NCBI GenBank assembly: GCA_951406725.2
Contig: OX597821.1
Span: 9,548,001 to 9,612,000, forward strand
Length of the DNA: 64,000 bases
Direction: 5' to 3'
Origin: Octopus vulgaris
Lineage: Eukaryota
The notes under the pieces were generated by a model that was given only the letters and a program-made list of their open reading frames with translations, was not told where the DNA came from and made no database searches. Of this stretch, positions 505 to 64,000 are shown piece by piece. Within the stretch, counting starts at the first letter, position 1. Every line of letters begins with the position of its first letter. A program made the position numbers and the translations under genes.

Positions 505-1405
505 TCTTTATTTCTTTATTGCCCACAGAGAGCTAACCATAGAGGGAGAAATAATGACAGGCAAAGGGATTAAGTCGATTACATCGACGGCAGTGCGTAA
601 TTGATACTTTTTTACGCGACCTCGAAAGGAAGACAGTAAAGTCGACCTCGGCGAAATGTGAACCCGGAACGTAACGACAGACGAAATACAACTAAGCATT
701 TCGCCCGACGTGCTAACGATTCTGCTAACTCACCGCCTGTTAACGAATAAATATTATTTTCTACTCTAGGCAGAAAGCCCAACATTTTTGGGGAGGGGCG
801 CAGTCGATTACATCGACCCAAGTGTGTAATTGTTTACATTGACCCCAGTGGTATTTATTCACATCGATCCCAGTGGTATTTATTTAATCGACCCCCTAAA
901 TGGTGAAAGGTAAAGCAGACCCCGGTGGGAATTTAGCGCAATGACAGACGAAATACCTCTAAGCATTTCGCCTGGCGTGTTAATGTTTCTTATTCTTTTA
1001 TTGCCCACAAGGGGCTAAACATAGAGAGGACAAACAAGGGAAGATAAAGGGATTATGTCGGTTACATCGACCACAGTGCGAAACTGGTACTTAATTTATC
1101 GACCCCGTAAGAAGGACAGGTGATGTCGACCTCGACGGAAATTGGATTTTGAGCGTAAGATAGACGAAATACCTATATCTTTACTACCCACAAGGAGCTA
1201 AACACAGAGAGGACAAACAAGGACAGACAAACGGATTAAGTTGATTATATCGACCCCAGTGCGTAACTGGTACTTAATTCATCGACCCCGAATGGATGAA
1301 AGGAAAGTCGACCGCGGTGGAATTTGAACTCAGAACGTAGCGGCAGACGAAATACTTCTAAGCATTTCGCCCGGCGTGCTAATGTTTTTGCCAGCTCGCC
1401 GCCCA
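505..1405 (-). mobile_element. Cluster of about 4 tandem or partial copies of SINE family B
   Basis: Repeated blocks reverse-complementary to 7265-7500 (GTCGACCTCGGCG, ACATCGACCCCAGTGCG, TTATTGCCCACAAGGGGCTAAAC); the most complete copy is ~1178-1405. Confidence 0.8.
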
Positions 1406-7264: not shown

Positions 7265-7502
7265 AAGGCGGCGAGCTGGCAGAACCGTTAGCACGCCGGG
7301 CAATATGCTCAGCGGTATTTCGTCTGCCGTCACGTTCTGAGTTCAAATTCCGCCGAGGTTGACTTTGCCTTTCATCCTTTCGGGGTGGATAAATTAAGTA
7401 CCAGTTAAAGCACTGGGGTTGATGTAATCGACTTAATCCCTTTGCCTATCCTTGTTTGTCCCTTCTATGTTTAGCCCCTTGTGGGTAGTAAAGAAATAGG
7501 TA
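7265..7502 (+). mobile_element. SINE family B, full-length copy
   Basis: tRNA-like head GGCGGCGAGCTGGCAGAA...GAGTTCAAATTCC; central GCCTTTCATCCTTTCGGGGT.GATAAATTAAGTACCAG; tail GCCCCTTGTGGGTAGTAAAGAAAT. Confidence 0.85.
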
Positions 7503-15713: not shown

Positions 15714-15753
<40 letters not shown>

Positions 15754-16105: not shown

Positions 16106-16158
<53 letters not shown>

Positions 16159-16298: not shown

Positions 16299-16351
<53 letters not shown>

Positions 16352-16439
16352 GTAGTAGTAGTAGTAGTAGTAGTAGTAGCAGTAGTAGTAGTAGTAGCAA
16401 AGCAGCAGCCCTAAACACTAGGCCATTGCGCCTCCATAT

Positions 16440-16471
<32 letters not shown>

Positions 16472-16494
16472 TTCCTTATGTATATGAATATATT

Positions 16495-16574
<80 letters not shown>

Positions 16575-16915
16575 AATTCTATCTAGGTCTCTGTATATAT
16601 AAACACAATGATATAAGAACAGTTTAAATAATAGTATGTTACATATTACAATCAATATATGCTACCAGTTGCAATCAAAATCATCATGGATATAACGTAA
16701 AATTAATGACAACAAATCGAATTAAATTAACATCATAATGGTTCTGAGAGCATATAACAGCAGTAACTGAAGTATTTTTGTTTATATCTAAAAGTTAATT
16801 TAGTGTTCCTGAATGCTCAGAATATCGACGGTCTCCAATTTAATGCAAATATACACGAGCAAACGTACATACAAAACACATGCCAACATGAGTATGGATA
16901 CACATATACATCTTA

Positions 16916-16972
<57 letters not shown>

Positions 16973-17071
16973 TGTGTATGAATATAAATATATATAAATA
17001 TATATATACACACATCTATATATATGATTATGTGTGTGAGTATGTATATATATGCATATAAGTATGTTTAA

Positions 17072-17102
<31 letters not shown>

Positions 17103-17112
17103 GTTATTATTA

Positions 17113-17197
<85 letters not shown>

Positions 17198-17225
17198 TTA
17201 GTAGTAGCAGCAGCAGCAGCAACAG
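15617..17225. repeat. Tandem duplication of about 790 bp
   Basis: ~15617-16400 and ~16404-17200 are near-identical; both start GCCCTAAACACTAGGCCATTGCGCCTCC and end in (TAT)n(AGT)n. Confidence 0.9.
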
Positions 17226-19389: not shown

Positions 19390-20620
19390 AGAAAAACAAC
19401 TTTTAAAAAATCATGGACAGAAGCAACCACAATCTAGATTCGATACAAAAAGTAACACTAGGACAAGTTTGGAAGATACCTTTTTAGACCCAGCCGGGAG
19501 AACTCTCGACACCCGATGGTACAAGTCGAAGATCAGAAACCAAAGATAATTAGCCTTTGTAAAAAGCACTTGCAGTAATGTGAAATATCTTTCTTCATTG
19601 GGGCCGTTGATGTTCATGGTGGCTCTTTCATACATACTTATATACTGGCACTGACACAGGCAGCCACACTTATACTATCAGTGACATAGACAGTCACACT
19701 TATACTGAGGACACAAATGTATAAGCAGTCAAGGAATATTCTAGTGCCAATCATTTATAGAAAGACCTAGATGCCATATATAATGGGTGAAGAAAATAAT
19801 ATACAATTTAATGCAGTTAAATTCTAATCCCTTCACTACCAAAAAAATTGGTCTCTCACAAGCTGTAACGCGATACTTACGACCAAAAAGAGTGACGTTT
19901 GCTGTGAGATCTGGAGATTGATATGAGCAACGATGCCTCGTTATTGTGGCAGTGTACCATCAAATGACGGATGCATTCTGAGGACGTTCAGAACAACGTA
20001 TTAGATTGTATACTCGTACTATGGAAGCCATTTATATTCAGCTGTCTGGACTGCTGCTCTCAACTATAGTCACCTTACAATGTCAAATTAGTAGCAGAAT
20101 TTGTGACATTTCAGCAGTGCTGCACAAGTGAGATTGCACTATTGGAACAGCTGAGAAACTGGGAGAGACTAAACGTGCTACGAATCTAGACCCAGGAACG
20201 GAGACAGGAGAGCTACGCAGTGCTATAAGTATGGAAGATCCGGGATGGGCTGGTACCAAACTTTGGTATTGAGAGCTACACCAGCTCCTGAATTTGATGT
20301 CTTTACATTATTCCATAGACCCTAACTAGCCCGTCTAGAGTGAGCATAGTATTGCAATAGCTTGGGATTCAAGAGCCTACAGCTATTTAACGGCTTACCA
20401 AAATATCGGGGGGGGGGGGGGCTGGAGTAGGTGTTGGTGTTTTCAGAAACGATTTAACACCTGAAATTCAAAGTTGCAGATGAACCTATATCAAGGCAGG
20501 AAACTCAAAAGATAGTAGGAGTGGCGAAATCCCCTTTCCCCAAAAGTCAATCACATAAGCCTAACCATTGAAAAGGTTCCATTATACTCACAGTCGTATA
20601 AATGTATAAAAGGATAAAAG
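19390..20620 (+). mobile_element. Decayed CR1-type LINE fragment
   Basis: Colinear with 42300-43100 (GATGCCATATATAA.TGG, AATAGCTTGGGATTCAAG, GATGAACC.ATATCAA.GCAGGAAA). Confidence 0.6.
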
Positions 20621-30759: not shown

Positions 30760-32549
30760 GATATGTTTCGACCAAAGATTGGTCCAGGCCATGTCTAACT
30801 TAATAGCACCACCTGATAGGATTATTCGAATCCTGTTTAAGTCAAGTTTTGTTTATGGTCCAATCAAGTAGTGAGTTCTTGTTGGGTGAGTTGTATCCAA
30901 TTATGGGTGGCTTATCTGATATTCTTTGAAGGAATCTATCCAGACTCCGTTTAAAGTTGATGGGATCCTTTCCCTCTTTGATCTGCCTCGGGACAATGTT
31001 AAATAGGGCTGGACCTGTTGAGGAAAATAAATTATGTTGCAGTGTACATGTATGCTGTGATCTTGAATTGGGCAGGGTACGTATGGCCCGTGGTCCCAGT
31101 CTTGGATGAACCTTGAAGCTAATGTTAAGGTCGTTTGGGCAAAGTTAGCGGTATATTCTCCACATCGTACAAATGATGTACCGCTCAAGGCCATGCTGGA
31201 GAGAGTAAAGTTTCAAGGTTTTAAAGCGATCCCAATAATCGAGAGCAGCCATGCCTTCAATTCGTTTAGTGAGTGCCCTCTGGGGTGACTCAATCCTGGA
31301 GACGCTTTGTCTTGTATGGGGAGACCACAGTGGGCAGCAATATTCAAGGTCTGGCCGTACAAAGGAGGAGAAAAGTGGTATGATGACACCTTGTTCTCTG
31401 GACCGGAAAGTTCTTAAGATCCAGGAACTCATCCTACGAGCTATATCGACCTTCTTGTTGATGTGTGCACTCCAACTGAGATCGTCATCAACAATTACAC
31501 CCAGGTCTCTGATATTGTTAGAGGCTGTGAGCGGTTCCCCTGAAGGAAGAGAGTATGGCTGTTTTAGTGAGGAATTTCTTCCAAAATGCATCAGCTCAAA
31601 TTTTCCCTCATTCAGTTGCATTTTGTTTCTGTCTGCCCAATGACTCACAGCATATAGATCAGACTGGAGTTGAGTTCCGACTGCTTCTTCATTGACGATT
31701 TGCTGGAGCTTAGTGTCATCAGCAAATATTTTCACTTTGCAGTAATGTACGACACTGGAAAGGTCGTTTATGTAAATTATGAAGAGTAGCGGACCCAAGA
31801 CAGTTCCCTGGGGAACACCGCTGGTGACTTTTGCTGGGCTTGAGTGGACTCCATCAACTACAACATGTTGTGTTCTATTCGCCAGGAAATACTTAATCCA
31901 GTGTAGAACTTTTCCACGGATTCCAACTTTTGCCAATTTTGAGAGTAGGATATTATGGTCTACCCTGTCGAACGCTTTACTGAAGTCAAGATATATGACG
32001 TCAGAGTTCGAACCTGTTCCCAAGGCTTTGAGTACATCTTCAATGTGGTGTAAGAGCTGTGTTAGACAGTCCCTGCCACAGCGAAAGCCATGCTGATTTG
32101 CATTTAGGAGTTTGTGGGTCTCCAGGATGTCAGCTATCCTTGATCTTAACACTGTTTCAAACACTTTAATGATGTGGGAGGTGAGTGATATTGGGCGATA
32201 GTTGACTGCGAGGGATCTGTTTCCCTGTTTGAAAACCGGGATGACCGACTGGGATAGAAACTGCTTCGGTATATAACCTGCGTCTAACGAATTTCTCCAG
32301 AGGGACTGCAAGTTGGTGTCTACATTCCTTCAGGAGACTAGCTGGGAATCTATCAGGGCCTACAGCAGAGTAGTATTTGACCTCATTTATTGCTGTTACG
32401 ATGTCAGTGGCAGTGAAGGTTATGTCTGAGATTTTGTGTTGGGAGTCAACTTCGTTCGCTTCTCTTACATCAATATCAGTGGGAACACTAAAGACAGAGC
32501 AGTATTGTCTCTGCAGTATTTCTGCCATTTCTTTAGCATCGTAAAACAC
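30760..32549 (-). mobile_element. 5'-truncated CR1-group LINE, ORF2 RT domain with frameshifts
   Basis: ORF 31145-32311: NYRPISLTSHIIKVFE, NQHGFR, YLDFSKAFDRV, SGVPQGTVLGPLLF, FADD, RDLGV, VRPDLEYC; upstream frame 32166-32549 has SAVGPDRFP. Confidence 0.95.
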
Positions 32550-34424
32550 TACTCTGCGTGCAATGTAGCCTCAGTAAAATGTGAGACCAATTGTCAAAAA
32601 TTAGGTAACCCCTCATGTCAGTAATTCGAAGGTGTTAATAAAATATTAAAAATCAGAAAAATGTCATTGTCTGGTAATAGAAGAATACGAATATATATAT
32701 ATATATTTTTACTTTAGTTTGGCATATACGTGGGAATGTGGTACCTAATTATACTTCGCACACTAATTTGTATAACCTACATCTGATTCGTGTTATATTA
32801 TTTTATACGTCTGTTACTTGTAGCATATATTATTATGTATCAAAATGAAAAATTTCTCTTCGACCGTCAGGGTTATATAAGACATCGATATCGTAATTCG
32901 AAATCCAGTTTTACGTCCTGTATGGCTATTCTTTTCATCAATACGTGAACAAAAATACAGTACATCTGAAGGATAAAGTTAAGATATTGTCGTGTAATTT
33001 CTTTTTACTATATTTTTTGTTTCAGACTTTGTAAGACAAACTGCTTCCTTACTAGTAATTTTTTGGCGAAGCAAATTTAAAATACATTCATAAAATATAT
33101 TTCAAGTGATTGCATAGGAGAAAATATCTGATTTATGCACATAAATAGAACGTTCGTATATATGTATATCTATATGTATATAGGCATGTGTGTGTTTATG
33201 CGTAGATGTTGAGATAAATTTCATAGAGAAATCAACATTTCCAATACGTCTAATAATTAGATATATTGCATGCCCCACTCTTAATCAAGATTACGTTTCA
33301 TTGACTATCTAATATTTACTAAATTGTTGAGACTGCTTCTCATAACAGATCAAACGCTCAAAACACATTTTTCAATGCTGTCTGTTAATAATGACTCAGA
33401 TTATGACTTCGCTTGAGTAAATGATAGGAATATTAAATAGTTCACTTAATCAAGTATAATTTTTCCATCTCCCGCAAATGTAGAAAAAGAAAGCAGGAAA
33501 ATATATGACTTCTAGTAAAACAATTGAGCTCACAGCAAACAGCTTTCTAATAAATTTAGTCTTGAAAATCGTTGTCAATTACGTTTCAGGTTTCTTAAAA
33601 ATTCTATACAAATGATGTCAGTTGTAGATTCGAGCGACTACATTTAATTAAAATCTAAAATATATTTCGAATGTTGTTGTACAGGGTACTCAGTGTGTAG
33701 TCCAGATGGTTTTAACATGAATCAATTTAGTCTTTAAGATGTATATTTAACAACGCACGTATGCTTTCATTTGATTATTCAGTAACTACCTACAAGAATA
33801 ACGTAACTGTCACAGTATTAGAAAGTTATTAACATTCAGTCATTCTTAGTAAAATTGTGCAGACAGGATTTGCGAAAATCGTGTTGGATTTAATGTACCA
33901 GTTTCAAGTAATCAAGATAAAGTTTTAATCAGACAGTTGCAAGTGAACACTGTTTGCCTCTCAGGCTTGCACACTTTTCGCAAGTTTATGCATGATGGAT
34001 GCAATTATTAAGGTCATGCATGTACAATATACTCCACAGCCACATATTTAATGTATATAACTTGATGTAAAATTAATATTTGTATAGTTATGTAATTGCA
34101 TCTATGATTGTGACCTACGCAGTAGTGCTGAAAGATTCCTAGCTTTTAAGGTGTCACGAAAGGCCTAGTCTGTGGCCCAACCTTTCGAGGTCTTTTAGAA
34201 AAACTGCAATAAGTAAGTGAACCAGGAGAGGAATATGTTGAAAAAAATCATAATTAACTGACCCTCCTGTATTTTCTTTTGGCCCAAACCAGGAGCAATT
34301 TTGAGTAGCCTCTCTTATGTGTGTCTATGCGTGTGTGTGTGTACATGTGTTAGTGCATGCATGTGTGTGTGCAACGGTGTGAGCGTACGCGCGTTGGTGT
34401 GTGTTTGTACGTGTGAGTGTACGT

Positions 34425-34715
34425 GTCTGTGTGTGATGTGTAGGTTTGTTTGTGTACGTGTGTGTGTGTGATGTGTAGGTTTGTTTGTGTACGTGTGTGT
34501 GTGTGATGTGTAGGTTTGTTTGTGTACGTGTGTGTGTGTGATGTGTAGGTTTGTTTGTGTACGTGTGTGTGTGTGATGTGTAGGTTTGTTTGTGTACGTG
34601 TGTGTGTGTGATGTGTAGGTTTGTTTGTGTACGCGTGTGTGTGTGATGTGTAGGTTTGTTTGTGTACGTGTGTGTGTGTGATGTGTAGGTTTGTTTGTGT
34701 ACGTGTGTGTGTGTG
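34425..34715. repeat. 35-bp minisatellite, about 8 copies
   Basis: TAGGTTTGTTTGTGTAC recurs at 34441, 34476, 34511, 34546, 34581, 34616, 34651 and 34686. Confidence 0.95.
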
Positions 34716-39330: not shown

Positions 39331-39556
39331 TACCCCAAGTAAATAACGTCACCTGGTACTTTTTCATAGTATAAGAGATGAAAATTTTGTATGCAGATAG
39401 AAAAAAATCTTTGACAATTCTGTATATACTATGGCAAACAAACATGTTTTATTTCAATAATATTTTATGAAGTATTCAGTAATATCGTAATTAACATTCT
39501 TCTTAAATTATTTATTTAAATAGGAATAAGTATAAGCATGTAAATATTGATCTCAC

Positions 39557-39941
39557 CTCCAGCGGTTTCATTGACACCAGGAATATCTTCACGCCACAAT
39601 ACAAGTGTGATTCGGGTATAAGTGAAAGCCATGAGACAGAATGGTAGTAAATACAGCGCAATGAATAAAAACATCTGATATATAAACTGCGATCTTTGTG
39701 ACCAGCTTGGTCTACAGGACACTAACCATTTCACGTGGTTGTATCTTATTGGAAGACTTCGATATGTTCGTGCTGTTACCAGATCAGGTGACGCCACGCA
39801 CGCGGACAACAGCCAGATCGTAAGAATGATGTTACGGGCCCGCGATGCTGTGCTCTTGAACGAAAGTGGATGGCAAATGGCATACCAGCGCTCAATAGAT
39901 ATTGCACTTAGCGTTAATACAGAAACAGCAACTGACACAGT
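39557..39941 (-). CDS. Internal exon (TM3 to ICL3) of an orexin/allatotropin receptor-like rhodopsin-class GPCR
   Basis: TVSVAVSVLTLSAISIERWYAICHPLSFKSTASRARNII..W...YLLPFCLMAFTY..I..LWREDIPG closely resembles orexin receptors; acceptor TTCTTTTATTTTCCAG|ACT (phase 0) and donor GAG|GTGAGA (phase 1); 385 nt. Confidence 0.92.
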
Positions 39942-40552
39942 CTGGAAAATAAAAGAAGAAAAATAGATTAATGTACTTTAATCGTTTCAAAGGTTTCTCA
40001 GTAAAAATTTGTATCGATTTATTGCAGAACGTCAAATATATAAAGAATGTTGTCAAATTGCAGTCAAAATATTCAAGAATTTCAAATATATGAGGACGTT
40101 TGTCAAATTGCAGTCTGAATATTTTGGAATACTTGATAAATATTTCATTGGAATGGAAACTCTAAAGAGAAAATATTTCTCTCAAAGTCAGAAAACATTC
40201 GTGAAATTTGAACGTGTTTCAATAGAATTCATGGTAATATTCTTTCTGTGAAGAATAATCACGCATAGTATTAAACGAATCGAAAAGTGTATGCTAAGTC
40301 CTCTAAAATTAACAAGCATTAAAATAACTATGTGCATGAAAGTTAGATGTTGAAATAAACATCACAGTAGAAATAGAGGATGCCTTTGAGATAAACACAA
40401 ACGGTGAAAATAAATATAGAGAAAACTTTGAACTTTAAATGAACTACACTAAATGAGTATTTCACGAGATCATTTTTACAAATTGGAAGAACTTGAATTT
40501 ACTTGTTTTGGTGCATAAAGAGTCAAAAGTATATTACGTTGGAAAATTGGTA

Positions 40553-41689
<1,137 letters not shown>

Positions 41690-42219: not shown

Positions 42220-43232
42220 ATATACATTATTGGGGTTGCTGTTACGATTAGTTACACATAGAGCCACACGGATTAGCTATGCCGGCAACACAAAAATAAC
42301 GCAAGCAGTCAAAGAATCTGATGATAATCTTCTATAGAAAAAGCTCGATGCCATATATAAATGGACTGAGAACAACATGCAATTAGGGGCAGGCAAATTC
42401 AAATCCTCCTCTACCAGCTAAGTAGTGCTCAGAAGTCGCAACAACGATTTTCAGGAGCAGCAATCCCAGAATCACATACGGTGCGGGATCATGGGATTGA
42501 TATGAGACTCGATGCCTCGTTCCACGTGCATATGACCAAGATGGTGGCAGTGTACAGACGAAAGGCTGGATTGATTCTGAGAACCTTCAGAACAAAAGAC
42601 CAGGAAACTATGTTGGTCCTATGGAGGACATTTTTCTCAGTCGTGGGGACGACACTTATCAGTTGTAGTCACCTTACAGTCTCGGATTAATAACGAAATT
42701 TGAGACGGTTCAGCGCTGCTACACAAGGAAGATTGCATCAATAGAACAGCTGAACTACTGAGAGAGACTGAAAGAGCTACGTCTCTATTCCCTGGGGTGA
42801 GGACGGAAGAGCTCTGCAGTGATATATGTCTGGAAGATACTAGACGGGATTGCACCAAACTTTGGAATTGGACGTCACTGAACGGTTCCAAAAGTCCCAA
42901 CTGTCTGATCTAATGTGATGTCAATGTACTACAATAGCTTGGGATTCAAGGGCTCTCAGCTATTTAACGCCTTCCCAAAATATCTGGAATATTTCCATAG
43001 AGTAGGGGTAGGTGTTTTCGAGAAACAGCTTGACCTCTTGGTATTCAAGATCCCAGATGAACCAATATCAAAGCAGGAAATATCAATGAACCAATATCAA
43101 AAGAAGGCTGCAGCGTTAATTCCCTCCTCCCCCCAAATCCAATCACATAGAATTGGTCAATTAAATGACGATTACACTAACAGTGCCCCAGCCTGGCCTC
43201 GGTCTTAAGGCTTAAACATAAAAGAATAAGGA
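42220..43232 (+). mobile_element. Decayed CR1-type LINE 3' part with tail
   Basis: RDHGIDM...GLILRTFRTKDQETMLVLWRT and NSLGFKGSQLFNAFPK..IPDEP motifs; tail GTGCCCCAGCCTGGCC...AAACATAAAAGAATAAG. Confidence 0.75.
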
Positions 43233-53822: not shown

Positions 53823-54200
53823 TCTTAATATATATATAAAACTGAGAAAGTGTGTGTGTATGTCTGTGTGTTTCCCTAAAACTTGAGAACTACACAACCA
53901 ATTTCATTCAAATTTTACACATGCCTTACTTAGGGTCCGGGGAGTGTCATCGACAAAACATTTTAACTTTTTGCCTAGGGCGAGCCCACAGCAATATATC
54001 TTCTCCATTACGATTCCCTAAAACTTGAGAACTACACAACCAAATTCATTCAAATTTTACACATGCCTTACTTAGGGTCCATGTAGTTTCATGGGCAAAA
54101 AACATGTTCAACTTCTTGCCTAGAGCCAGCCCATAGCAATATCATATCTTCTCCACTATTTCAATATTACGTGTTAAAAGTGAAACAAAAACATTTCTCT
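53823..54200 (+). mobile_element. Helitron-like 5' end with an internal ~140-bp tandem repeat
   Basis: TCTTAATATATATATAAAA..GTGTGT start resembles 47780; TTCCCTAAAACTTGAGAACTACACAACCA occurs at ~53872 and ~54014. Confidence 0.4.
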
Positions 54201-54683
54201 ATTTTATGTCAGATACTTTCACTTTAACAATAAAAATAATAATAACAATTGAATTATATGTAGTAAGTAATAATTAAAATCAAACTAATGTATAATATAA
54301 TCGTAACATAACAAAAGTAAAAATAGCAATTGGTATAAAATTGCATCAATGACTTGAACTTGAATAAGTGGTTTCACATAAATGGGAATAAATTAAAAAT
54401 AAAATTAGCGTGCAGAAATGGAATAGTCCAGATGGATAATAAAAAAATTAAATTAAAGAAAAGACTATTGTCTATAAAGTATAGAATGTAGAGGAAAAAA
54501 GGTCGCGTTTTTTCGGCTCTGTGTTTTTTGCTCTCTGTGAAATTCGGTAAAAAGAAAAAAGAACAAAAAGTGAATGGTTGTTGGTGTAAAATTTTGAACA
54601 TAGTTAATGAGGTTTCGCGTCTCACTGGTTCTGCGCGTTACACTTTTTCGGTTCGGGAGGCCGTTTCTCGGCCGGAGGCGACT

Positions 54684-56012
54684 ATGAGCCGCCTCCATCA
54701 AGCGGAGGAGATGGAAGGGAGAATTTACTCTGAAATTTCGACGGAAGTATCGACATCTGAGGAGGAGTTGGCGGTGAAAAAGATGGAAGGCACCTACGCA
54801 GGTGTAACGAAGAAGTCAACGGAAAGAGAGATAGACTTGGCTAAGTTGGCGGGCCTCCAGGAATTTGTGAAGGAGGACGAGAACGGTGAAGTTGAGCTGC
54901 TGCATCCAGTAGGGTGCGGAGACTGGTTCCATCGTAGAACCATTAAATATAAAGTATTTATGAATGGAGGTAGAAAGATGGAAGTAATTAACATGGAAGC
55001 AATTGAAGAGGCTCTTAAGCAGACGGGAGAGGAAATTGTGTACATGACGAAAGGATTACAATACGGAACCATAACGGTGCAATTTAAAAGTGAAAAAGCA
55101 GCCAGGAATGTAGCAGCCAAGGTGGTGAGTACAGAAAAGATTTACTTGTTACCCTCGTATCTGAATAGGCGGACAACTAGAATTAGGGTGGAGGGAATAC
55201 CTCCACACCTAGAGGGCGAAGTAATAACGGCTGCGGTTATAAAAGGAAATGAGGATAAGGTGGACATCCTCCACGCCAGTATGAAGTATGAAGGCGTGAG
55301 AGGTGCCACACTGGTTATGAACATTCAAACGGAGACGGATGTTATAGAGAAGATTACGGACAGCATAAAGACTGGAAATATTATTATGAGAGTGTGGGTG
55401 GAGGGTAGGGCGCCCAGGTGCTACAAGTGTGGCCAAAGGGGTCACATAAGAGCCTACTGCCCTCCCCCACCAAAGGAAAAAGAAAAGGAAAGCGTTGAGG
55501 AAGCCTCGGGAGAGGAAGAAAATAAACAGAAACAAACAGAGAAGGAAACGACAGAAGAAGAGGAGATGCAACAAGAGTGGAAAGAAGCGGGAACAAAGAG
55601 AAAAAGAAGGAAAAGGAAAAACTGTGCGAAGCCCCAACCCACCCCGACACCACCCATACCCTTGGAGTCCCATCCTTCCCCTGCAAACAGTAATTCCACC
55701 CACTCCCCGCCTACAAGAAGAATAAAAACAGACACACAGAGCAAAGAAAGTCCCAAGTCCCATTTTTTATTTGTTATACATGGGAGAGACGTACAAAACG
55801 TTAAAAAACTGGTGTTAACCAAGTGGTACGAACACGAAGATTGGAGCTACACGGCTGTGGATGGTGATGATACGGGTATATTGGCGACAAGGTTAGAGGA
55901 AGAGGGTGTGTGTTGGAAGTCAGTGGAAATGAAAGATGAATGGATAGAGAGGGCTAAAAGAAAAACGAATGTTGTGATGGTTAAAAGAGGAATACTAATT
56001 GAAAATGGGTGA
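54684..56012 (+). CDS. L1/Tx1 ORF1 (Gag-like) CCHC zinc-knuckle protein, copy 1 (442 aa)
   Basis: RRM-like blocks (GTITVQFKSE; TRIRVEGIPPHL), VWVEGRAPR-CYKCGQRGHIRAYC = CX2CX4HX4C, acidic tract, basic KRKRRK, Pro-rich linker. Confidence 0.85.
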   Translation: MSRLHQAEEMEGRIYSEISTEVSTSEEELAVKKMEGTYAGVTKKSTEREIDLAKLAGLQEFVKEDENGEVELLHPVGCGDWFHRRTIKYKVFMNGGRKMEVINMEAIEEALKQTGEEIVYMTKGLQYGTITVQFKSEKAARNVAAKVVSTEKIYLLPSYLNRRTTRIRVEGIPPHLEGEVITAAVIKGNEDKVDILHASMKYEGVRGATLVMNIQTETDVIEKITDSIKTGNIIMRVWVEGRAPRCYKCGQRGHIRAYCPPPPKEKEKESVEEASGEEENKQKQTEKETTEEEEMQQEWKEAGTKRKRRKRKNCAKPQPTPTPPIPLESHPSPANSNSTHSPPTRRIKTDTQSKESPKSHFLFVIHGRDVQNVKKLVLTKWYEHEDWSYTAVDGDDTGILATRLEEEGVCWKSVEMKDEWIERAKRKTNVVMVKRGILIENG

Positions 56013-56025
56013 AGAAGGACAGATA

Positions 56026-56059
56026 AGTGATGCTGGCGGATGGGGCCGTCGGTATCGCT
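56026..56059 (+). other. 3' UTR RNA hairpin of the array unit (present in all five complete copies)
   Basis: AGTGATGCTGGCGG-ATGGGG-CCGTCGGTATCGCT, a 14-bp stem with 4 G-U pairs. Confidence 0.65.
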
Positions 56060-56164
56060 CTCATATATCATTTTCATATTCCATTTTGCTCATATATATG
56101 TAATTGTGATGTTCCATGTCCCCATGTCTTGTAATGTCCCCCTCTTCGTTGGCCCCTTGTGGGT

Positions 56165-56170
56165 AATAAA
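56165..56170 (+). terminator. AATAAA polyadenylation signal / element 3' end (repeated in each unit)
   Basis: AATAAAAAA lies ~150 nt after the stop codon, at the unit junction. Confidence 0.55.
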
Positions 56171-56357
56171 AAATCACGCGGTTTTTTCGGCTCTGTGTTT
56201 TTTGCTCTCTGTGAAATTCGGTAAAAAGAAAAAAGAACAAAAAGTGAATGGTTGTTGGTGTAAAATTTTGAACATAGTTAATGCGGTTTCGCGTCTCACT
56301 GGTTCTGCGCGTTACACTTTTTCGGTTCGGGAGGCCGTTTCTCGGCCGGAGGCGACT

Positions 56358-57686
56358 ATGAGCCGCCTCCATCAAGCGGAGGAGATGGAAGGGAGAATTT
56401 ACTCTGAAATTTCGACGGAAGTATCGACATCTGAGGAGGAGTTGGCGGTGAAAAAGATGGAAGGCACCTACGCAGGTGTAACGAAGAAGTCAACGGAAAG
56501 AGAGATAGACTTGGCTAAGTTGGCGGGCCTCCAGGAATTTGTGAAGGAGGACGAGAACGGTGAAGTTGAGCTGCTGCATCCAGTAGGGTGCGGAGACTGG
56601 TTCCATCGTAGAACCATTAAATATAAAGTATTTATGAATGGAGGTAGAAAGATGGAAGTAATTAACATGGAAGCAATTGAAGAGGCTCTTAAGCAGACGG
56701 GAGAGGAAATTGTGTACATGACGAAAGGATTACAATACGGAACCATAACGGTGCAATTTAAAAGTGAAAAAGCAGCCAGGAATGTAGCAGCCAAGGTGGT
56801 GAGTACAGAAAAGATTTACTTGTTACCCTCGTATCTGAATAGGCGGACAACTAGAATTAGGGTGGAGGGAATACCTCCACACCTAGAGGGCGAATTAATA
56901 ACGGCTGCGGTTATAAAAGGAAATGAAGATAAAGTGGACATCCTCCACGCCATTATGAAGTATGAAGGCGTGAGAGGTGCCACACTAGTTATGAACGTTC
57001 AAACGGAGGCGGATGTTATAGAGAAGATTACGGACAGCATAAAGACTGGAAATATTATTATGAGAGTGTGGGTGGAGGGTAGGGCGCCCAGGTGCTACAA
57101 GTGTGGCCAAAGGGGTCACATAAGAGCCTACTGCCCTCCCCCACCAAAGGAAAAAGAAAAGGAAAGCGTTGAGGAAGCCTCGGGAGAGGAAGAAAATAAA
57201 CAGAAACAAACAGAGAAGGAAACGACAGAAGAAGAGGAGATGCAACAAGAGTGGAAAGAAGCGGGAACAAAGAGAAAAAGAAGGAAAAAGAAAAACTGTG
57301 CGAAGCCCCAACCCACCCCGACACCACCCATACCCTTGGAGTCCCATCCTTCCCCTGCAAACAGTAATTCCACCCACTCCCCGCCTACAAGAAGAATAAA
57401 AACAGACACACAGAGCAAAGAAAGTCCCAAGACCCATTTTTTATTTGTTATACATGGGAGAGACGTACAAAACGTTAAAAAACTGGTGTTAACCAAGTGG
57501 TACGAACACGAAGATTGGAGCTACACGGCTGTGGATGGTGATGATACGGGTATATTGGCGACAAGGTTAGAGGAAGAGGGTGTGTGTTGGAAGACAGTGG
57601 AAATGAAAGATGAATGGATAGAGAGGGCTAAAAGAAAAACGAATGTTGTGATGGTTAAAACAGGAATACTAATTGAAAATGGGTGA
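56358..57686 (+). CDS. ORF1/Gag-like zinc-knuckle protein, copy 2
   Basis: Intact 442-aa frame near-identical to copy 1. Confidence 0.85.
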   Translation: MSRLHQAEEMEGRIYSEISTEVSTSEEELAVKKMEGTYAGVTKKSTEREIDLAKLAGLQEFVKEDENGEVELLHPVGCGDWFHRRTIKYKVFMNGGRKMEVINMEAIEEALKQTGEEIVYMTKGLQYGTITVQFKSEKAARNVAAKVVSTEKIYLLPSYLNRRTTRIRVEGIPPHLEGELITAAVIKGNEDKVDILHAIMKYEGVRGATLVMNVQTEADVIEKITDSIKTGNIIMRVWVEGRAPRCYKCGQRGHIRAYCPPPPKEKEKESVEEASGEEENKQKQTEKETTEEEEMQQEWKEAGTKRKRRKKKNCAKPQPTPTPPIPLESHPSPANSNSTHSPPTRRIKTDTQSKESPKTHFLFVIHGRDVQNVKKLVLTKWYEHEDWSYTAVDGDDTGILATRLEEEGVCWKTVEMKDEWIERAKRKTNVVMVKTGILIENG

Positions 57687-58029
57687 AGAAGGACAGATAA
57701 GTGATGCTGGCGGATGGGGCCGTCGGTATCGCTCTCATATATCATTTTCATATTCCATTTTGCTCATATATATGTAATTGTGATGTTCCATGTCCCCATG
57801 TCTTGTAATGTCCCCCTCTTCGTTGGCCCCTTGTGGGTAATAAAAAATCACGTGGTTTTCGGCTCCGTGTTTTTTGCTCTCTGTGAAATTCGGTAAAAAG
57901 AAAAAAGAACAAAAAGTGAATGGTTGTTGGTGTAAAATTTTGAACATAGTTAATGCGGTTTCGCGTCTCACTGGTTCTGCGCGTTACACTTTTTCGGTTC
58001 GGGAGGCCGTTTCTCGGCCGGAGGCGACT

Positions 58030-59358
58030 ATGAGCCGCCTCCATCAAGCGGAGGAGATGGAAGGGAGAATTTACTCTGAAATTTCGACGGAAGTATCGAC
58101 ATCTGAGGAGGAGTTGGCGGTGAAAAAGATGGAAGGCACCTACGCAGGTGTAACGAAGAAGTCAACGGAAAGAGAGATAGACTTGGCTAAGTTGGCGGGC
58201 CTCCAGGAATTTGTGAAGGAGGACGAGAACGGTGAAGTTGAGCTGCTGCATCCAGTAGGGTGCGGAGACTGGTTCCATCGTAGAACCATTAAATATAAAG
58301 TATTTATGAATGGAGGTAGAAAGATGGAAGTAATTAACATGGAAGCAATTGAAGAGGCTCTTAAGCAGACGGGAGAGGAAATTGTGTACATGACGAAAGG
58401 ATTACAATACGGAACCATAACGGTGCAATTTAAAAGTGAAAAAGCAGCCAGGAATGTAGCAGCCAAGGTGGTGAGTACAGAAAAGATTTACTTGTTACCC
58501 TCGTATCTGAATAGGCGGACAACTAGAATTAGGGTGGAGGGAATACCTCCACACCTAGAGGGCGAAGTAATAACGGCTGCGGTTATAAAAGGAAATGAGG
58601 ATAAGGTGGACATCCTCCACGCCAGTATGAAGTATGAAGGCGTGAGAGGTGCCACACTGGTTATGAACATTCAAACGGAGGCGGATGTTATAGAGAAGAT
58701 TACGGACAGCATAAAGACTGGAAATATTATTATGAGAGTGTGGGTGGAGGGTAGGGCGCCCAGGTGCTACAAGTGTGGCCAAAGGGGTCACATAAGAGCC
58801 TACTGCCCTCCCCCACCAAAGGAAAAAGAAAAGGAAAGCGTTGAGGAAGCCTCGGGAGAGGAAGAAAATAAACAGAAACAAACAGAGAAGGAAACGACAG
58901 AAGAAGAGGAGATGCAACAAGAGTGGAAAGAAGCGGGAACAAAGAGAAAAAGAAGGAAAAAGAAAAACTGTGCGAAGCCCCAACCCACCCCGACATCACC
59001 CATACCCTTGGAGTCCCATCCTTCCCCTGCAAACAGTAATTCCACCCACTCCCCGCCTACAAGAAGAATAAAAACAGACACACAGAGCAAAGAAAGTCCC
59101 AAGTCCCATTTTTTATTTGTTATACATGGGAGAGACGTACAAAACGTTAAAAAACTGGTGTTAACCAAGTGGTACGAACACGAAGATTGGAGCTACACGG
59201 CTGTGGATGGTGATGATACGGGTATATTGGCGACAAGGTTAGAGGAAGAGGGTGTGTGTTGGAAGTCAGTGGAAATGAAAGATGAATGGATAGAGAGGGC
59301 TAAAAGAAAAACGAATGTTGTGATGGTTAAAACAGGAATACTAATTGAAAATGGGTGA
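58030..59358 (+). CDS. ORF1/Gag-like zinc-knuckle protein, copy 3
   Basis: Intact 442-aa frame. Confidence 0.85.
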   Translation: MSRLHQAEEMEGRIYSEISTEVSTSEEELAVKKMEGTYAGVTKKSTEREIDLAKLAGLQEFVKEDENGEVELLHPVGCGDWFHRRTIKYKVFMNGGRKMEVINMEAIEEALKQTGEEIVYMTKGLQYGTITVQFKSEKAARNVAAKVVSTEKIYLLPSYLNRRTTRIRVEGIPPHLEGEVITAAVIKGNEDKVDILHASMKYEGVRGATLVMNIQTEADVIEKITDSIKTGNIIMRVWVEGRAPRCYKCGQRGHIRAYCPPPPKEKEKESVEEASGEEENKQKQTEKETTEEEEMQQEWKEAGTKRKRRKKKNCAKPQPTPTSPIPLESHPSPANSNSTHSPPTRRIKTDTQSKESPKSHFLFVIHGRDVQNVKKLVLTKWYEHEDWSYTAVDGDDTGILATRLEEEGVCWKSVEMKDEWIERAKRKTNVVMVKTGILIENG

Positions 59359-59703
59359 AGAAGGACAGATAAGTGATGCTGGCGGATGGGGCCGTCGGTA
59401 TCGCTCTCATATATCATTTTCATATTCCATTTTTGCTCATATAAATGTAATTGTGATGTTCCATGTCCCCATGTCTTGTAATGTCCCCCTCTTCGTTGGC
59501 CCCTTGTGGGTAATAAAAAATCACGTGGTTTTTCGGCTCTGTGTTTTTTGCTCTCTGTGAAATTCGGTAAAAAGAAAAAAGAACAAAAAGTGAATGGTTG
59601 TTGGTGTAAAATTTTGAACATAGTTGATGAGGTTTCGCGTCTCACTGGTTCTGCGCGTTACACTTTTTCGGTTCGGGAGGCCGTTTCTCGGCCGGAGGCG
59701 ACT

Positions 59704-61032
59704 ATGAGCCGCCTCCATCAAGCGGAGGAGATGGAAGGGAGAATTTACTCTGAAATTTCGACGGAAGTATCGACATCTGAGGAGGAGTTGGCGGTGAAAA
59801 AGATGGAAGGCACCTACGCAGGTGTAACGAAGAAGTCAACGGAAAGAGAGATAGACTTGGCTAAGTTGGCGGGCCTCCAGGAATTTGTGAAGGAGGACGA
59901 GAACGGTGAAGTTGAGCTGCTGCATCCAGTAGGGTGCGGAGACTGGTTCCATCGTAGAACCATTAAATATAAAGTATTTATGAATGGAGGTAGAAAGATG
60001 GAAGTAATTAACATGGAAGCAATTGAAGAGGCTCTTAAGCAGACGGGAGAGGAAATTGTGTACATGACGAAAGGATTACAATACGGAACCATAACGGTGC
60101 AATTTAAAAGTGAAAAAGCAGCCAGGAATGTAGCAGCCAAGGTGGTGAGTACAGAAAAGATTTACTTGTTACCCTCGTATCTGAATAGGCGGACAACTAG
60201 AATTAGGGTGGAGGGAATACCTCCACACCTAGAGGGCGAAGTAATAACGGCTGCGGTTATAAAAGGAAATGAGGATAAGGTGGACATCCTCCACGCCAGT
60301 ATGAAGTATGAAGGCGTGAGAGGTGCCACACTGGTTATGAACATTCAAACGGAGGCGGATGTTATAGAGAAGATTACGGACAGCATAAAGACTGGAAATA
60401 TTATTATGAGAGTGTGGGTGGAGGGTAGGGCGCCCAGGTGCTACAAGTGTGGCCAAAGGGGTCACATAAGAGCCTACTGCCCTCCCCCACCAAAGGAAAA
60501 AGAAAAGGAAAGCGTTGAGGAAGCCTCGGGAGAGGAAGAAAATAAACAGAAACAAACAGAGAAGGAAACGACAGAAGAAGAGGAGATGCAACAAGAGTGG
60601 AAAGAAGCGGGAACAAAGAGAAAAAGAAGGAAAAAGAAAAACTGTGCGAAGCCCCAACCCACCCCGACATCACCCATACCCTTGGAGTCCCATCCTTCCC
60701 CTGCAAACAGTAATTCCACCCACTCCCCGCCTACAAGAAGAATAAAAACAGACACACAGAGAAAAGAAAGTCCCAAGTCCCATTTTTTATTTGTTATACA
60801 TGGGAGAGACGTACAAAACGTTAAAAAACTGGTGTTAACCAAGTGGTACGAACACGAAGATTGGAGCTACACGGCTGTGGATGGTGATGATACGGGTATA
60901 TTGGCGACAAGGTTAGAGGAAGAGGGTGTGTGTTGGAAGTCAGTGGAAATGAAAGATGAATGGATAGAGAGGGCTAAAAGAAAAACGAATGTTGTGATGG
61001 TTAAAACAGGAATACTAATTGAAAATGGGTGA
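59704..61032 (+). CDS. ORF1/Gag-like zinc-knuckle protein, copy 4
   Basis: Intact 442-aa frame. Confidence 0.85.
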   Translation: MSRLHQAEEMEGRIYSEISTEVSTSEEELAVKKMEGTYAGVTKKSTEREIDLAKLAGLQEFVKEDENGEVELLHPVGCGDWFHRRTIKYKVFMNGGRKMEVINMEAIEEALKQTGEEIVYMTKGLQYGTITVQFKSEKAARNVAAKVVSTEKIYLLPSYLNRRTTRIRVEGIPPHLEGEVITAAVIKGNEDKVDILHASMKYEGVRGATLVMNIQTEADVIEKITDSIKTGNIIMRVWVEGRAPRCYKCGQRGHIRAYCPPPPKEKEKESVEEASGEEENKQKQTEKETTEEEEMQQEWKEAGTKRKRRKKKNCAKPQPTPTSPIPLESHPSPANSNSTHSPPTRRIKTDTQRKESPKSHFLFVIHGRDVQNVKKLVLTKWYEHEDWSYTAVDGDDTGILATRLEEEGVCWKSVEMKDEWIERAKRKTNVVMVKTGILIENG

Positions 61033-61377
61033 AGAAGGACAGATAAGTGATGCTGGCGGATGGGGCCGTCGGTATCGCTCTCATATATCATTTTCATATT
61101 CCATTTTTGCTCATATAAATGTAATTGTGATGTTCCATGTCCCCATGTCTTGTAATGTCCCCCTCTTCGTTGGCCCCTTGTGGGTAATAAAAAATCACGT
61201 GGTTTTTCGGCTCTGTGTTTTTTGCTCTCTGTGAAATTCGGTAAAAAGAAAAAAGAACAAAAAGTGAATGGTTGTTGGTGTAAAATTTTGAACATAGTTG
61301 ATGAGGTTTCGCGTCTCACTGGTTCTGCGCGTTACACTTTTTCGGTTCGGGAGGCCGTTTCTCGGCCGGAGGCGACT

Positions 61378-62706
61378 ATGAGCCGCCTCCATCAAGCGGA
61401 GGAGATGGAAGGGAGAATTTACTCTGAAATTTCGACGGAAGTATCGACATCTGAGGAGGAGTTGGCGGTGAAAAAGATGGAAGGCACCTACGCAGGTGTA
61501 ACGAAGAAGTCAACGGAAAGAGAGATAGACTTGGCTAAGTTGGCGGGCCTCCAGGAATTTGTGAAGGAGGACGAGAACGGTGAAGTTGAGCTGCTGCATC
61601 CAGTAGGGTGCGGAGACTGGTTCCATCGTAGAACCATTAAATATAAAGTATTTATGAATGGAGGTAGAAAGATGGAAGTAATTAACATGGAAGCAATTGA
61701 AGAGGCTCTTAAGCAGACGGGAGAGGAAATTGTGTACATGACAAAAGGATTACAATACGGAACGATAACGGTGCAATTTAAAAGTGAAAAAGCAGCCAGG
61801 AATGTAGCAGCCAAGGTGGTGAGTACAGAAAAGATTTACTTGTTACCCTCGTATCTGAATAGGCGGACAACTAGAATTAGGGTGGAGGGAATACCTCCAC
61901 ACCTAGAGGGCGAAGTAATAACGGCTGCGGTTATAAAAGGAAATGAGGATAAGGTGGACATCCTCCACGCCAGTATGAAGTATGAAGGCGTGAGAGGTGC
62001 CACACTGGTTATGAACATTCAAACGGAGGCGGATGTTATAGAGAAGATTACGGACAGCATAAAGACTGGAAATATTATTATGAGAGTGTGGGTGGAGGGT
62101 AGGGCGCCCAGGTGCTACAAGTGTGGCCAAAGGGGTCACATAAGAGCCTACTGCCCTCCCCCACCAAAGGAAAAAGAAAAGGAAAGCGTTGAGGAAGCCT
62201 CGGGAGAGGAAGAAAATAAACAGAAACAAACAGAGAAGGAAACGACAGAAGAAGAGGAGATGCAACAAGAGTGGAAAGAAGCGGGAACAAAGAGAAAAAG
62301 AAGGAAAAAGAAAAACTGTGCGAAGCCCCAACCCACCCCGACACCACCCATACCCTTGGAGTCCCATCCTTCCCCTGCAAACAGTAATTCCACCCACTCC
62401 CCGCCTACAAGAAAAATAAAAACAGACACACAGAGCAAAGAAAGTCCCAAGACCCATTTTTTATTTGTTATACATGGGAAAGACATACAAAACGTTAAAA
62501 AACTGGTGTTAACCAAGTGGTACGAACACGAAGATTGGAGCTACACGGTTGTGGATAGTGATGATACGGGTATATTGGCGACAAGGTTAGAGGAAGAGGG
62601 TGTGTGTTGGAAGTCAGTGAAAATGAAAGATGAATGGAGAGAGAGGGCTAAAAGAAAAACGAATGTTGTGATAGGTGAAACAGGAATACAAATTGGAAAT
62701 GGGTGA
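61378..62706 (+). CDS. ORF1/Gag-like zinc-knuckle protein, copy 5 (divergent C-terminus)
   Basis: Intact 442-aa frame; amino-acid changes cluster in the last ~100 aa. Confidence 0.85.
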   Translation: MSRLHQAEEMEGRIYSEISTEVSTSEEELAVKKMEGTYAGVTKKSTEREIDLAKLAGLQEFVKEDENGEVELLHPVGCGDWFHRRTIKYKVFMNGGRKMEVINMEAIEEALKQTGEEIVYMTKGLQYGTITVQFKSEKAARNVAAKVVSTEKIYLLPSYLNRRTTRIRVEGIPPHLEGEVITAAVIKGNEDKVDILHASMKYEGVRGATLVMNIQTEADVIEKITDSIKTGNIIMRVWVEGRAPRCYKCGQRGHIRAYCPPPPKEKEKESVEEASGEEENKQKQTEKETTEEEEMQQEWKEAGTKRKRRKKKNCAKPQPTPTPPIPLESHPSPANSNSTHSPPTRKIKTDTQSKESPKTHFLFVIHGKDIQNVKKLVLTKWYEHEDWSYTVVDSDDTGILATRLEEEGVCWKSVKMKDEWRERAKRKTNVVIGETGIQIGNG

Positions 62707-63051
62707 AGAAGGACAGACAAGTGATGCTGGCGGATGGGGCCGTCGGTATCACTCTCATATATCATTTTTCATATTCCATTTTGCTCATATATATGTAATT
62801 GTGATGTTCCATGTCCCCATGTCTTGTAATGTCCCCCTCTTCGTTGGCCCCTTGTGGGTAATAAAAAATCACGTGGTTTTTTCGGCTCTGTGTTTTTTGC
62901 TCTCTGTGAAATTCGGTAAAAAGAAAAAGAACAAAAAGTGAATGGTTGTTGGTGTAAAATTTTGAACATAGTTGATGAGGTTTCGCGTCTCACTGGTTCT
63001 GCGCGTTACACTTTTTCGGTTCGGGAGGCCGTTTCTCGGCCGGAGGCGACT

Positions 63052-64000
63052 ATGAGCCGCCTCCATCAAGCGGAGGAGATGGAAGGGAGAATTTACTCTG
63101 AAATTTCGACGGAAGTATCGACATCTGAGGAGGAGTTGGCGGTGAAAAAGATGGAAGGCACCTACGCAGGTGTAACGAAGAAGTCAACGGAAAGAGAGAT
63201 AGACTTGGCTAAGTTGGCGGGCCTCCAGGAATTTGTGAAGGAGGACGAGAACGGTGAAGTTGAGCTGCTGCATCCAGTAGGGTGCGGAGACTGGTTCCAT
63301 CGTAGAACCATTAAATATAAAGTATTTATGAATGGAGGTAGAAAGATGGAAGTAATTAACATGGAAGCAATTGAAGAGGCTCTTAAGCAGACGGGAGAGG
63401 AAATTGTGTACATGACGAAAGGATTACAATACGGAACGATAACGGTGCAATTTAAAAGTGAAAAAGCAGCCAGGAATGTAGCAGCCAAGGTGGTGAGTAC
63501 AGAAAAGATTTACTTGTTACCCTCGTATCTGAATAGGCGGACAACTAGAATTAGGGTGGAGGGAATACCTCCACACCTAGAGGGCGAAGTAATAACGGCT
63601 GCGGTTATAAAAGGAAATGAGGATAAGGTGGACATCCTCCACGCCAGTATGAAGTATGAAGGCGTGAGAGGTGCCACACTGGTTATGAACATTCAAACGG
63701 AGGCGGATGTTATAGAGAAGATTACGGACAGCATAAAGACTGGAAATATTATTATGAGAGTGTGGGTGGAGGGTAGGGCGCCCAGGTGCTACAAGTGTGG
63801 CCAAAGGGGTCACATAAGAGCCTACTGCCCTCCCCCACCAAAGGAAAAAGAAAAGGAAAGCGTTGAGGAAGCCTCGGGAGAGGAAGAAAATAAACAGAAA
63901 CAAACAGAGAAGGAAACGACAGAAGAAGAGGAGATGCAACAAGAGTGGAAAGAAGCGGGAACAAAGAGAAAAAGAAGGAAAAAGAAAAACTGTGCGAAGC
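63052..64000 (+). CDS. ORF1/Gag-like zinc-knuckle protein, copy 6 (runs off window)
   Basis: Same ATG context GGCGACTATGAGCC; matches the other copies to the window end. Confidence 0.8.
   Translation, partial: MSRLHQAEEMEGRIYSEISTEVSTSEEELAVKKMEGTYAGVTKKSTEREIDLAKLAGLQEFVKEDENGEVELLHPVGCGDWFHRRTIKYKVFMNGGRKMEVINMEAIEEALKQTGEEIVYMTKGLQYGTITVQFKSEKAARNVAAKVVSTEKIYLLPSYLNRRTTRIRVEGIPPHLEGEVITAAVIKGNEDKVDILHASMKYEGVRGATLVMNIQTEADVIEKITDSIKTGNIIMRVWVEGRAPRCYKCGQRGHIRAYCPPPPKEKEKESVEEASGEEENKQKQTEKETTEEEEMQQEWKEAGTKRKRRKKKNCAK

What the first reader, a model, noticed from the sequence alone, without database searches (positions are those of the whole stretch)
56128..56174. Array unit shares its 3' tail with SINE family B
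Seen: the unit ends CTTGTAATGTCCCCCTCTTCGTTGGCCCCTTGTGGGTAATAAAAAAT. SINE B copies end CTTGTTTGTCCTCTCTATGTTTAGCCCCTTGTGGGCAATAAAAGAAT (reverse complement of 992-1038) and CTTGTTTGTCCCTTCTATGTTTAGCCCCTTGTGGGTAGTAAAGAAAT (7451-7497), including a small GCCC-CTTGT-GGGY stem-loop. Known: SINEs borrow the 3' tail of the LINE whose RT mobilises them. Inference: a three-part system in which an unseen autonomous LINE supplies RT to both a Pol III SINE and this protein-coding ORF1-only element. The tail also independently marks the unit's 3' end.
Basis: partly seen in the sequence, partly recalled or inferred. Interest (0 to 1): 0.8.

Follow-up and report, generated by a model that had tools for sequence, protein, structure and literature searches.

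The report
Octopus half-LINE array sharing SINE tail
An octopus jumping gene that kept only its RNA-binding protein sits in a head-to-tail array and ends in the same short tail as a neighbouring short repeat, which suggests both borrow the copying enzyme of a full-length element that was not found here.

Summary
Observation confirmed. The last 47 bases of each 1.67-kb array unit match two SINE copies at 39 of 49 columns, a score reached by 0 of 1000 shuffles. The unit encodes an intact 442-aa type I LINE ORF1 (two RRM-like folds plus CCHC; named relatives in Octopus and Argonauta) and no reverse transcriptase. The tail is the end of a larger 3' module: read contigs share the whole ~160-base UTR, or its last ~35 bases, behind different upstream sequence. 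An O. vulgaris sister family, only 25-26% identical in its C-terminal domain, ends in the codons that open this UTR. Its gene models lie on 14 chromosome-sized contigs, 11 of 21 hold repeated copies, and 2 interleave with this unit. That argues for a LINE-type 3' end and against a passive SINE fragment. The autonomous partner was not found (no genome held), so the three-part model stays inferred; L1-Tx1 is my guess. ORF1-only LINE derivatives are known (HAL1, HeT-A, Ag-Sponge): a new variant, moderate interest.

The parts
54500..64000 (+). Head-to-tail array: 5 complete units plus a sixth cut by the window end; period 1672-1675 bases; units differ by 3-26 substitutions
   Evidence: left edge from loose ends behind 54499
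54500..54683 (+). 5' UTR of unit 1 (184 bases; T-rich start)
   Evidence: internal Pol II promoter inferred, not tested
54684..56012 (+). ORF1 of unit 1, 442 aa: two RRM-like domains, one CCHC knuckle (245-260), acidic/basic/Pro linker, ~85-aa C-terminal domain of unresolved fold
56358..57686 (+). ORF1, unit 2, intact
58030..59358 (+). ORF1, unit 3, intact
59704..61032 (+). ORF1, unit 4, intact
61378..62706 (+). ORF1, unit 5, intact; most divergent unit, differences clustered in its 3' third
63052..64000 (+). ORF1, unit 6, cut by window end
56015..56174 (+). 3' UTR module, shared by read contigs with different upstream sequence; its first codons continue the ORF frame to a second stop (R-R-T-D-K-stop)
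56026..56059 (+). 14-bp hairpin at the start of the UTR (z -4.1); the one change in unit 5 keeps the pair
56128..56174 (+). Tail shared with the SINE; repeats at 57802-57848, 59475-59521, 61149-61195, 62823-62869
56152..56164 (+). 4-bp stem with 5-base loop, possible but weak; followed by AATAAA at 56165-56170
7267..7497 (+). Full SINE copy with the shared tail; A- and B-box-like head read by eye (ARAGORN and Rfam find nothing)
1174..1403 (-). Full SINE copy with the shared tail, first of a head-to-tail cluster
991..1173 (-). 5'-truncated SINE copy joined directly to the tail of the previous copy
508..737 (-). Older full SINE copy with the shared tail, between two copies of a 13-base target-like motif
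54256..54499 (.). Unrelated high-copy repeat interrupted by the array; not part of the unit and not repeated between units

Best explanation
The unit is a non-autonomous, ORF1-only derivative of a LINE (a half-LINE, like HAL1), most likely of the L1-Tx1 group. It lost ORF2 but kept its 5' UTR, ORF1 and the LINE 3' end. The SINE took its tail from the same LINE lineage. Likely working: Pol II transcribes a unit and ends it at the AATAAA (inferred); ORF1p binds RNA (fold predicted, binding inferred); ORF2p of an autonomous LINE recognises the 3' end in trans and inserts the copy by target-primed reverse transcription (inferred, partner unseen). Head-to-tail runs start from serial insertion or RT template jumping and are then expanded and mixed by unequal crossover and conversion (mosaic units shown, mechanism inferred). 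Shown: shared tail, ORF1-only anatomy, intact frames, a 3' module shared across different upstream sequences. Not shown: the partner, its clade, transcription, mobility.
For: Tail match far above shuffles, at the exact 3' end of both elements. Two RRM-like folds plus CCHC (pLDDT 91, tandem-RRM hits at E about 1e-5) is type I ORF1, which PMC5203782 (passages) links to Tx1 in non-mammalian animals. Contigs match from 56015-56017 on with other sequence before (X1: 1 contig of 1068 bases, 19 other letters and 10 gaps over ~150; X4: 4 contigs), and 4, 27 and 34 contigs in X2, X4 and X14 match only from 56139 on. So this end belongs to several families. A sister family (P0152 type) ends in RTGK-stop in 13 of 21 models, in register with the window's RTDK-stop; the other 8 of 8 break right after RT into a residue with a G-starting codon, as a splice donor there would give. 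In-ORF indels among reads are 3 of 3 multiples of three; listed read variants in the RRM-CCHC core are 10 synonymous of 20 (expected 21%, p 0.004). The SINE cluster is punctuated by three copies of a 13-base motif (0.02 expected), like serial insertion with target duplications. O. vulgaris has 13 recently active L1-Tx1 families (PMC13282606).
Against: No RT-bearing element with this tail was seen: not in the window (its one RT ORF has another 3' end), nor in viral contigs or metagenomes (58, 61), which hold little octopus DNA. 0 of 150 ORF1 relatives carry an RT or endonuclease family. Unit-SINE tails differ at 10 columns, against 6-9 among the three better SINE copies. Among the 5 units only 5 of 27 variable codons are synonymous, as expected without selection. 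The variant test used only the 40 best supported of 217 rows (36 in the ORF). Type I ORF1 also occurs in I, Jockey, R1, Tad1, L2 and CR1 (PMC4120745), so the clade is open. No target duplication of the array can be read, since its right end is outside the window.
Confidence: 0.6

Rival explanations
1. Shared ancestry, not a shared machine: the SINE and the half-LINE took related tails from different members of one LINE lineage, and the unit now multiplies mainly as DNA (a protein-coding satellite) by unequal crossover.
For: About 80% tail identity, lower than to other tail-bearing contigs; units 98.4-99.8% identical, mosaic, with neutral-looking differences; no target sequence sandwiched between units.
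Against: Frames intact in 5 of 5 units; sister-family models on 14 chromosome-sized contigs imply spread between chromosomes; two X1 contigs continue past the tail into other sequence, as dispersed copies would.
Confidence: 0.25
2. The tail is a 5'-truncated SINE insertion caught at the end of the unit and copied passively.
For: SINEs are 11.6% of the O. vulgaris genome (PMC13282606); truncated SINE copies join head to tail in this window.
Against: No duplication around the 47-mer (longest shared word 4 bases); many contigs match the unit's own version of the last ~35 bases behind other upstream sequence; the UTR is shared across ORF ends only ~25% identical as protein; the stretch supplies the unit's poly(A)-signal hexamer.
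Confidence: 0.08
3. The unit is a domesticated, tandemly amplified host gene for an RNA-binding protein (for example a decoy or restriction factor against LINEs), and the tail is a relic.
For: Intact frames, synonymous excess in the core; feature similarity 0.90 to ZCCHC3-like clusters (a lead only).
Against: Intronless, LINE-like ends, very many divergent relatives in octopus genomes, insertion into another repeat; no expression shown.
Confidence: 0.05
4. Chance or convergence of two pyrimidine-rich ends before a poly(A) signal.
For: Short stretch; part is low in complexity.
Against: 0 of 1000 shuffles for the two best copies; match at the terminus of both elements.
Confidence: 0.02

Closest known systems
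HAL1 (half-L1) of mammals
   Same: Non-autonomous L1 derivative encoding only ORF1p (PMC5753468, passage); coexists with SINEs using the same machinery.
   Different: Here ORF1 is type I (RRM-RRM-CCHC), the link to the SINE is a shared sequence tail rather than poly(A) alone, and copies form long head-to-tail arrays.
HeT-A with TART/TAHRE (Drosophila telomeres)
   Same: ORF1-only element (PMC5786205, passage); head-to-tail mixed arrays (recalled).
   Different: Jockey clade and telomeric; here the array starts inside another repeat, no telomeric position was shown, and the 3' UTR is short.
Ag-Sponge (CR1-derived, Anopheles)
   Same: ORF1-present bipartite non-autonomous LINE (PMC5786205).
   Different: CR1 clade; arrays and a SINE partner not mentioned in the passage read.
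Tx1 clade and SINEU (crocodilians)
   Same: Tx1 elements inferred to mobilise a SINE; tandem SINE insertions sandwiching a target duplication (PMC4494074, passages), as in the SINE cluster at 493-1418.
   Different: SINEU has snRNA heads and codes no protein; membership of this unit in Tx1 could not be tested without ORF2.
Octopus tRNA/CORE SINEs OR1/OR2 (Ohshima and Okada 1994)
   Same: Octopus SINEs cited as CORE-SINEs (PMC4758252, PMC4824008, passages). That 'SINE B' is one of them is recalled, not tested; the original paper was not seen.
   Different: The passages read name no partner LINE for them; bivalve CORE-SINE tails are assigned to CR1 or L2.

Membership tests
ORF1-only non-autonomous LINE (HAL1-like) | Encodes a LINE ORF1-type protein | tested here: met
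   Tandem RRM-like fold plus CCHC directly behind; matches the type I definition
ORF1-only non-autonomous LINE (HAL1-like) | No ORF2 (endonuclease/RT) | tested here: met
   Unit is 1674 bases with one long ORF; 162 bases from stop to unit end
ORF1-only non-autonomous LINE (HAL1-like) | 5' and 3' ends derived from an identified autonomous LINE | not testable with these tools
   No genome held; collection scans empty
ORF1-only non-autonomous LINE (HAL1-like) | Dispersed copies with target duplications, 5' truncation, A-rich end | tested here: inconclusive
   A-rich end with AATAAA present; two X1 contigs run on into other sequence after 56173; array's right end outside the window
L1-Tx1 clade | RT phylogeny | not testable with these tools
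   No linked ORF2; 0 of 150 ORF1 relatives fused to RT
L1-Tx1 clade | Type I ORF1 with RRM and CCHC | tested here: met
   not diagnostic, as other clades have it too
SINE-LINE pair with stringent 3' recognition | 3' tail shared with an RT-encoding LINE | tested here: inconclusive
   Shared with an ORF1-only element and with unidentified contigs; RT carrier not seen
SINE-LINE pair with stringent 3' recognition | Conserved tail stem-loop with compensatory changes | tested here: inconclusive
   20 of 20 cells paired, 0 two-sided changes, only 5 sequences; z about -0.2 to -0.3
tRNA-derived (Pol III) SINE | tRNA-like head with A and B boxes | tested here: inconclusive
   Box-like words by eye; ARAGORN 0 genes; no tRNA hit in Rfam
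HeT-A-like telomeric array | Position at a chromosome end | not testable with these tools
   Array runs off the window; no assembly

The most novel reading that the evidence does not exclude
Octopus carries a guild of deeply diverged ORF1-only elements that share one conserved 3' RNA module with each other, with a SINE and with an autonomous LINE, and build mixed head-to-tail arrays on many chromosomes: a HeT-A/TAHRE-like cooperative system outside Drosophila telomeres. The half-LINEs may supply ORF1 chaperone in trans, or the arrays may mark structural sites such as centromeres or subtelomeres.
Probability: 0.15. Interest if true: 0.8.

Novelty: new variant of a known kind. Interest (0 to 1): 0.45.

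Why it matters
SINEs make up about 11.6% of the O. vulgaris genome (PMC13282606), and the papers read here name no partner LINE for its tRNA/CORE SINEs. This tail gives a direct search handle for that partner. It would also add a mollusc case to the short list of ORF1-only LINE derivatives (HAL1, HeT-A, Ag-Sponge), with the unusual twist of mixed tandem arrays and a UTR more conserved than the protein before it. Practically, these units contaminate O. vulgaris gene models, since at least 21 predicted proteins contain spliced pieces of them.

Tried and rejected
Whole-genome search: no assembly held. The window's RT ORF (31145-32329, minus; RVT_1 E 6e-31) as partner: rejected, its 3' end lacks the tail. 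84 of 93 other open frames were scanned for LINE domains: none (most of the 9 left out were already scanned or overlapped known features). Word-based homologue searches with the whole ORF1 and with a 24-sequence core profile among longer proteins found nothing; both are weak negatives. Tail and UTR motifs in viral contigs and metagenomes: 0 matches, uninformative for an animal repeat. Locus search with the core alignment could not run. Tail motif in 4 of 8 supplement files of PMC9115989: none; 4 files unsearched and 2 too large may bear on this. Rfam: nothing in the window. C-terminal domain: no Pfam or Atlas hit; model pLDDT 59, best Z 5.7 (LAGLIDADG-like), not trusted. Transcription: X1 and X2 are only guessed to be RNA and also cover the flanking repeat, so nothing is claimed; contig depth is not a copy number. 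P0170 joins the sister domain to an endonuclease-like motif seen by eye, with no Pfam support; taken as a spliced artefact. Earlier findings: none returned. Print searches listed no paper on an octopus ORF1-only element; Repbase, Dfam and the Zenodo library of PMC13282606 could not be checked, so it may already sit there under another label.

Full report
Observation. The 47-mer is at 56128-56174 and is identical in 5 of 5 complete units of an array that runs from about 54500 off the window end, with a period of 1672-1675 bases. Four SINE copies end in a related tail (7267-7497 plus; 1174-1403, 991-1173 and 508-737 minus). Aligning the whole unit to each SINE copy finds just this terminal stretch: 39/49, 39/49, 37/48 and 33/43 columns, reached by 0, 0, 3 and 2 of 1000 shuffles.

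Host and protein. Each unit has one 442-aa ORF, intact in 5 of 5. HMMER finds 265 relatives at E up to 0.001 (some are bare zinc-knuckle repeats). Of 10 looked up first, 7 are named Octopus proteins, 1 Argonauta, 2 without an organism. The core folds with pLDDT 91 as two beta-alpha-beta-beta-alpha-beta domains and hits tandem-RRM structures (best E 9.5e-6), followed by a CCHC knuckle just under the Pfam cut-off. That is type I LINE ORF1 (PMC4120745, passages), found in several clades; PMC5203782 (passages) ties such ORF1s in non-mammalian animals to Tx1. There is no room for ORF2. None of the 150 listed relatives has an RT or endonuclease family. The window's only RT frame has a different 3' end; I call it CR1-like from recall.

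The tail is the end of a larger module. I laid contigs of 4 of 24 listed runs on 54170-56205. Contigs of X1 tile the unit from 54508 to 56172, which supports both ends. The AT-rich left flank is a separate repeat that continues differently after 54499 in other copies, so the array interrupts it. Three kinds of loose end matter (342 further rows were not shown). First, one X1 contig of 1068 bases matches 56017-56170 with 19 other letters and 10 gaps and has other sequence upstream, and 4 X4 contigs break at 56015: the whole UTR sits behind other coding ends. Second, 4, 27 and 34 contigs in X2, X4 and X14 match only from 56139, with a recognisably related but different upstream consensus (agreement 0.63-0.88): further families carry the unit's version of the tail. 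From recall, untested, octopus L1-Tx1 elements end in a similar way. Third, two X1 contigs go on past 56173 into other sequence, as dispersed copies would.

A sister family. O. vulgaris gene models contain an 89-aa domain 25-26% identical to the unit's C-terminal domain. 13 of 21 such models end in RTGK-stop, and the window's UTR, read on in the ORF frame, gives stop-R-R-T-D-K-stop. The other 8 of 8 break after RT into residues whose codons start with G, as a splice donor at that place would give (inference). The X4 loose end at 56015, read by hand in that frame, is open and matches this family at 3 of 10 residues in register, a weak hint. The 18 hits lie on 14 contigs of 41-226 Mb. 11 of 21 models hold two or three copies of the domain, and 2 (P0024, P0153) have a near-identical piece of this unit between two copies, which implies mixed same-strand clusters; spacing is unknown because the models are spliced. 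I did not see the DNA of this family, so that it is ORF1-only and carries the full UTR is inferred.

RNA structure. A 14-bp hairpin at 56026-56059, at the edge where the families begin to agree, has z -4.1 (1 of 200 shuffles), and the single change in unit 5 keeps the pair. The SINE lacks it, so it is a candidate signal for the long elements only.

Selection and array history. Listed read variants in the RRM-CCHC core are 10 synonymous of 20 (p 0.004), 13 of 36 over the whole ORF (p 0.025), with no stops; listed indels in the ORF are 3 of 3 in frame (only the best-supported 40 of 217 variants and 12 of 27 indels were shown). Among the five units the pattern is neutral (5 of 27 synonymous), and differences come in patches, pointing to recent DNA-level expansion and conversion. 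No flank sequence lies between units, so serial insertion into one external target is not shown. The SINE cluster, in contrast, is bounded by three copies of a 13-base motif and includes truncated copies fused to the previous tail, like the tandem insertions described for Tx1-linked SINEU (PMC4494074, passages).

Passive capture. The longest word shared by the 30 bases on either side of the 47-mer is 4 bases. The unit differs from the best SINE copies at 10 columns, while those differ from each other at 6-9 (the script alignment gave 17-22 for unit versus SINE through poorer gap placement). With the closer tail relatives in reads, this makes a captured SINE fragment unlikely but does not exclude an old one.

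Mechanism and rivals. Best reading (0.6): a half-LINE and a SINE both mobilised in trans by one LINE lineage, probably L1-Tx1, which has 13 recently active families in O. vulgaris (PMC13282606, text parts 1-2 of 3 and supplement rows). Rivals: shared ancestry with present spread as a coding satellite (0.25), passive SINE fragment (0.08), domesticated gene (0.05), chance (0.02). The decisive element, an RT-coding LINE with this tail, could not be sought properly: no assembly was held, and scans of viral and metagenome contigs were empty.

Comparison with the known. PMC5786205 (passages) lists HeT-A, HAL1 and Ag-Sponge as ORF1-present non-autonomous LINEs; PMC5753468 (passages) describes HAL1. 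SINE-LINE tail sharing is standard (PMC4824008, passages and section 11; PMC4758252, passages; PMC3747384, passages). PMC9115989 (passages, 4 of 8 supplement files), PMC8967140 and PMC9004415 (passages) gave nothing on this element. Ohshima and Okada 1994 and Bao and Jurka 2010 were seen only as references.

Verdict. Observation confirmed, interpretation partly supported. It works like HAL1 or HeT-A; membership of a clade is untested. New variant of a known kind, interest 0.45; the bolder reading, a mixed-array guild with a structural or helper role, has probability about 0.15.

Noticed in passing
window 493-1418 (minus): Cluster of four SINE copies with three copies of a 13-base motif at its ends and inside (0.02 expected): looks like repeated insertion at one target; it mixes SINEs with two different tails (the copy at about 759-990 ends differently).
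   Followed up: partly
window 30769-32570 (minus): 5'-truncated LINE fragment with RVT_1 (E 6e-31), frameshifted and with a stop, ending at a TG microsatellite; CR1-like by recall. Two more diverged fragments of similar kind at 19723-20503 and 42303-43080.
   Followed up: partly
window 39516-39977 (minus): Open frame matching 7tm_1, rhodopsin-family receptor (E 6e-21): a probable host gene or fragment.
   Followed up: no
window 54256-54499: Very abundant AT-rich repeat interrupted by the array; other copies carry a TG microsatellite before 54324 and continue after 54436 or 54499; may be a decayed coding element.
   Followed up: partly
proteins P0024, P0152-P0154, P0161-P0177: O. vulgaris gene models are contaminated by spliced pieces of the sister family, some fused to real genes (for example P0176, P0177).
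   Followed up: partly
window 56040-57686: In unit 2 a frame runs open from the previous unit's UTR through the junction into ORF1 (548 aa); it depends on the T-run length at the junction, which varies from 4 to 6.
   Followed up: no
window 15617-17220: Local duplication of about 800 bases, 92% identical, rich in microsatellites.
   Followed up: no
window 40554-41689: Inverted pair of 277 bases, 96% identical, around a long AT microsatellite.
   Followed up: no
window 34417-34715: 35-base minisatellite, 8.5 copies, 98% matches.
   Followed up: no
window 55746-56009: The ORF1 C-terminal domain has no Pfam or Atlas match; many relatives have some C-terminal domain beyond the linker; fold unresolved.
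   Followed up: partly
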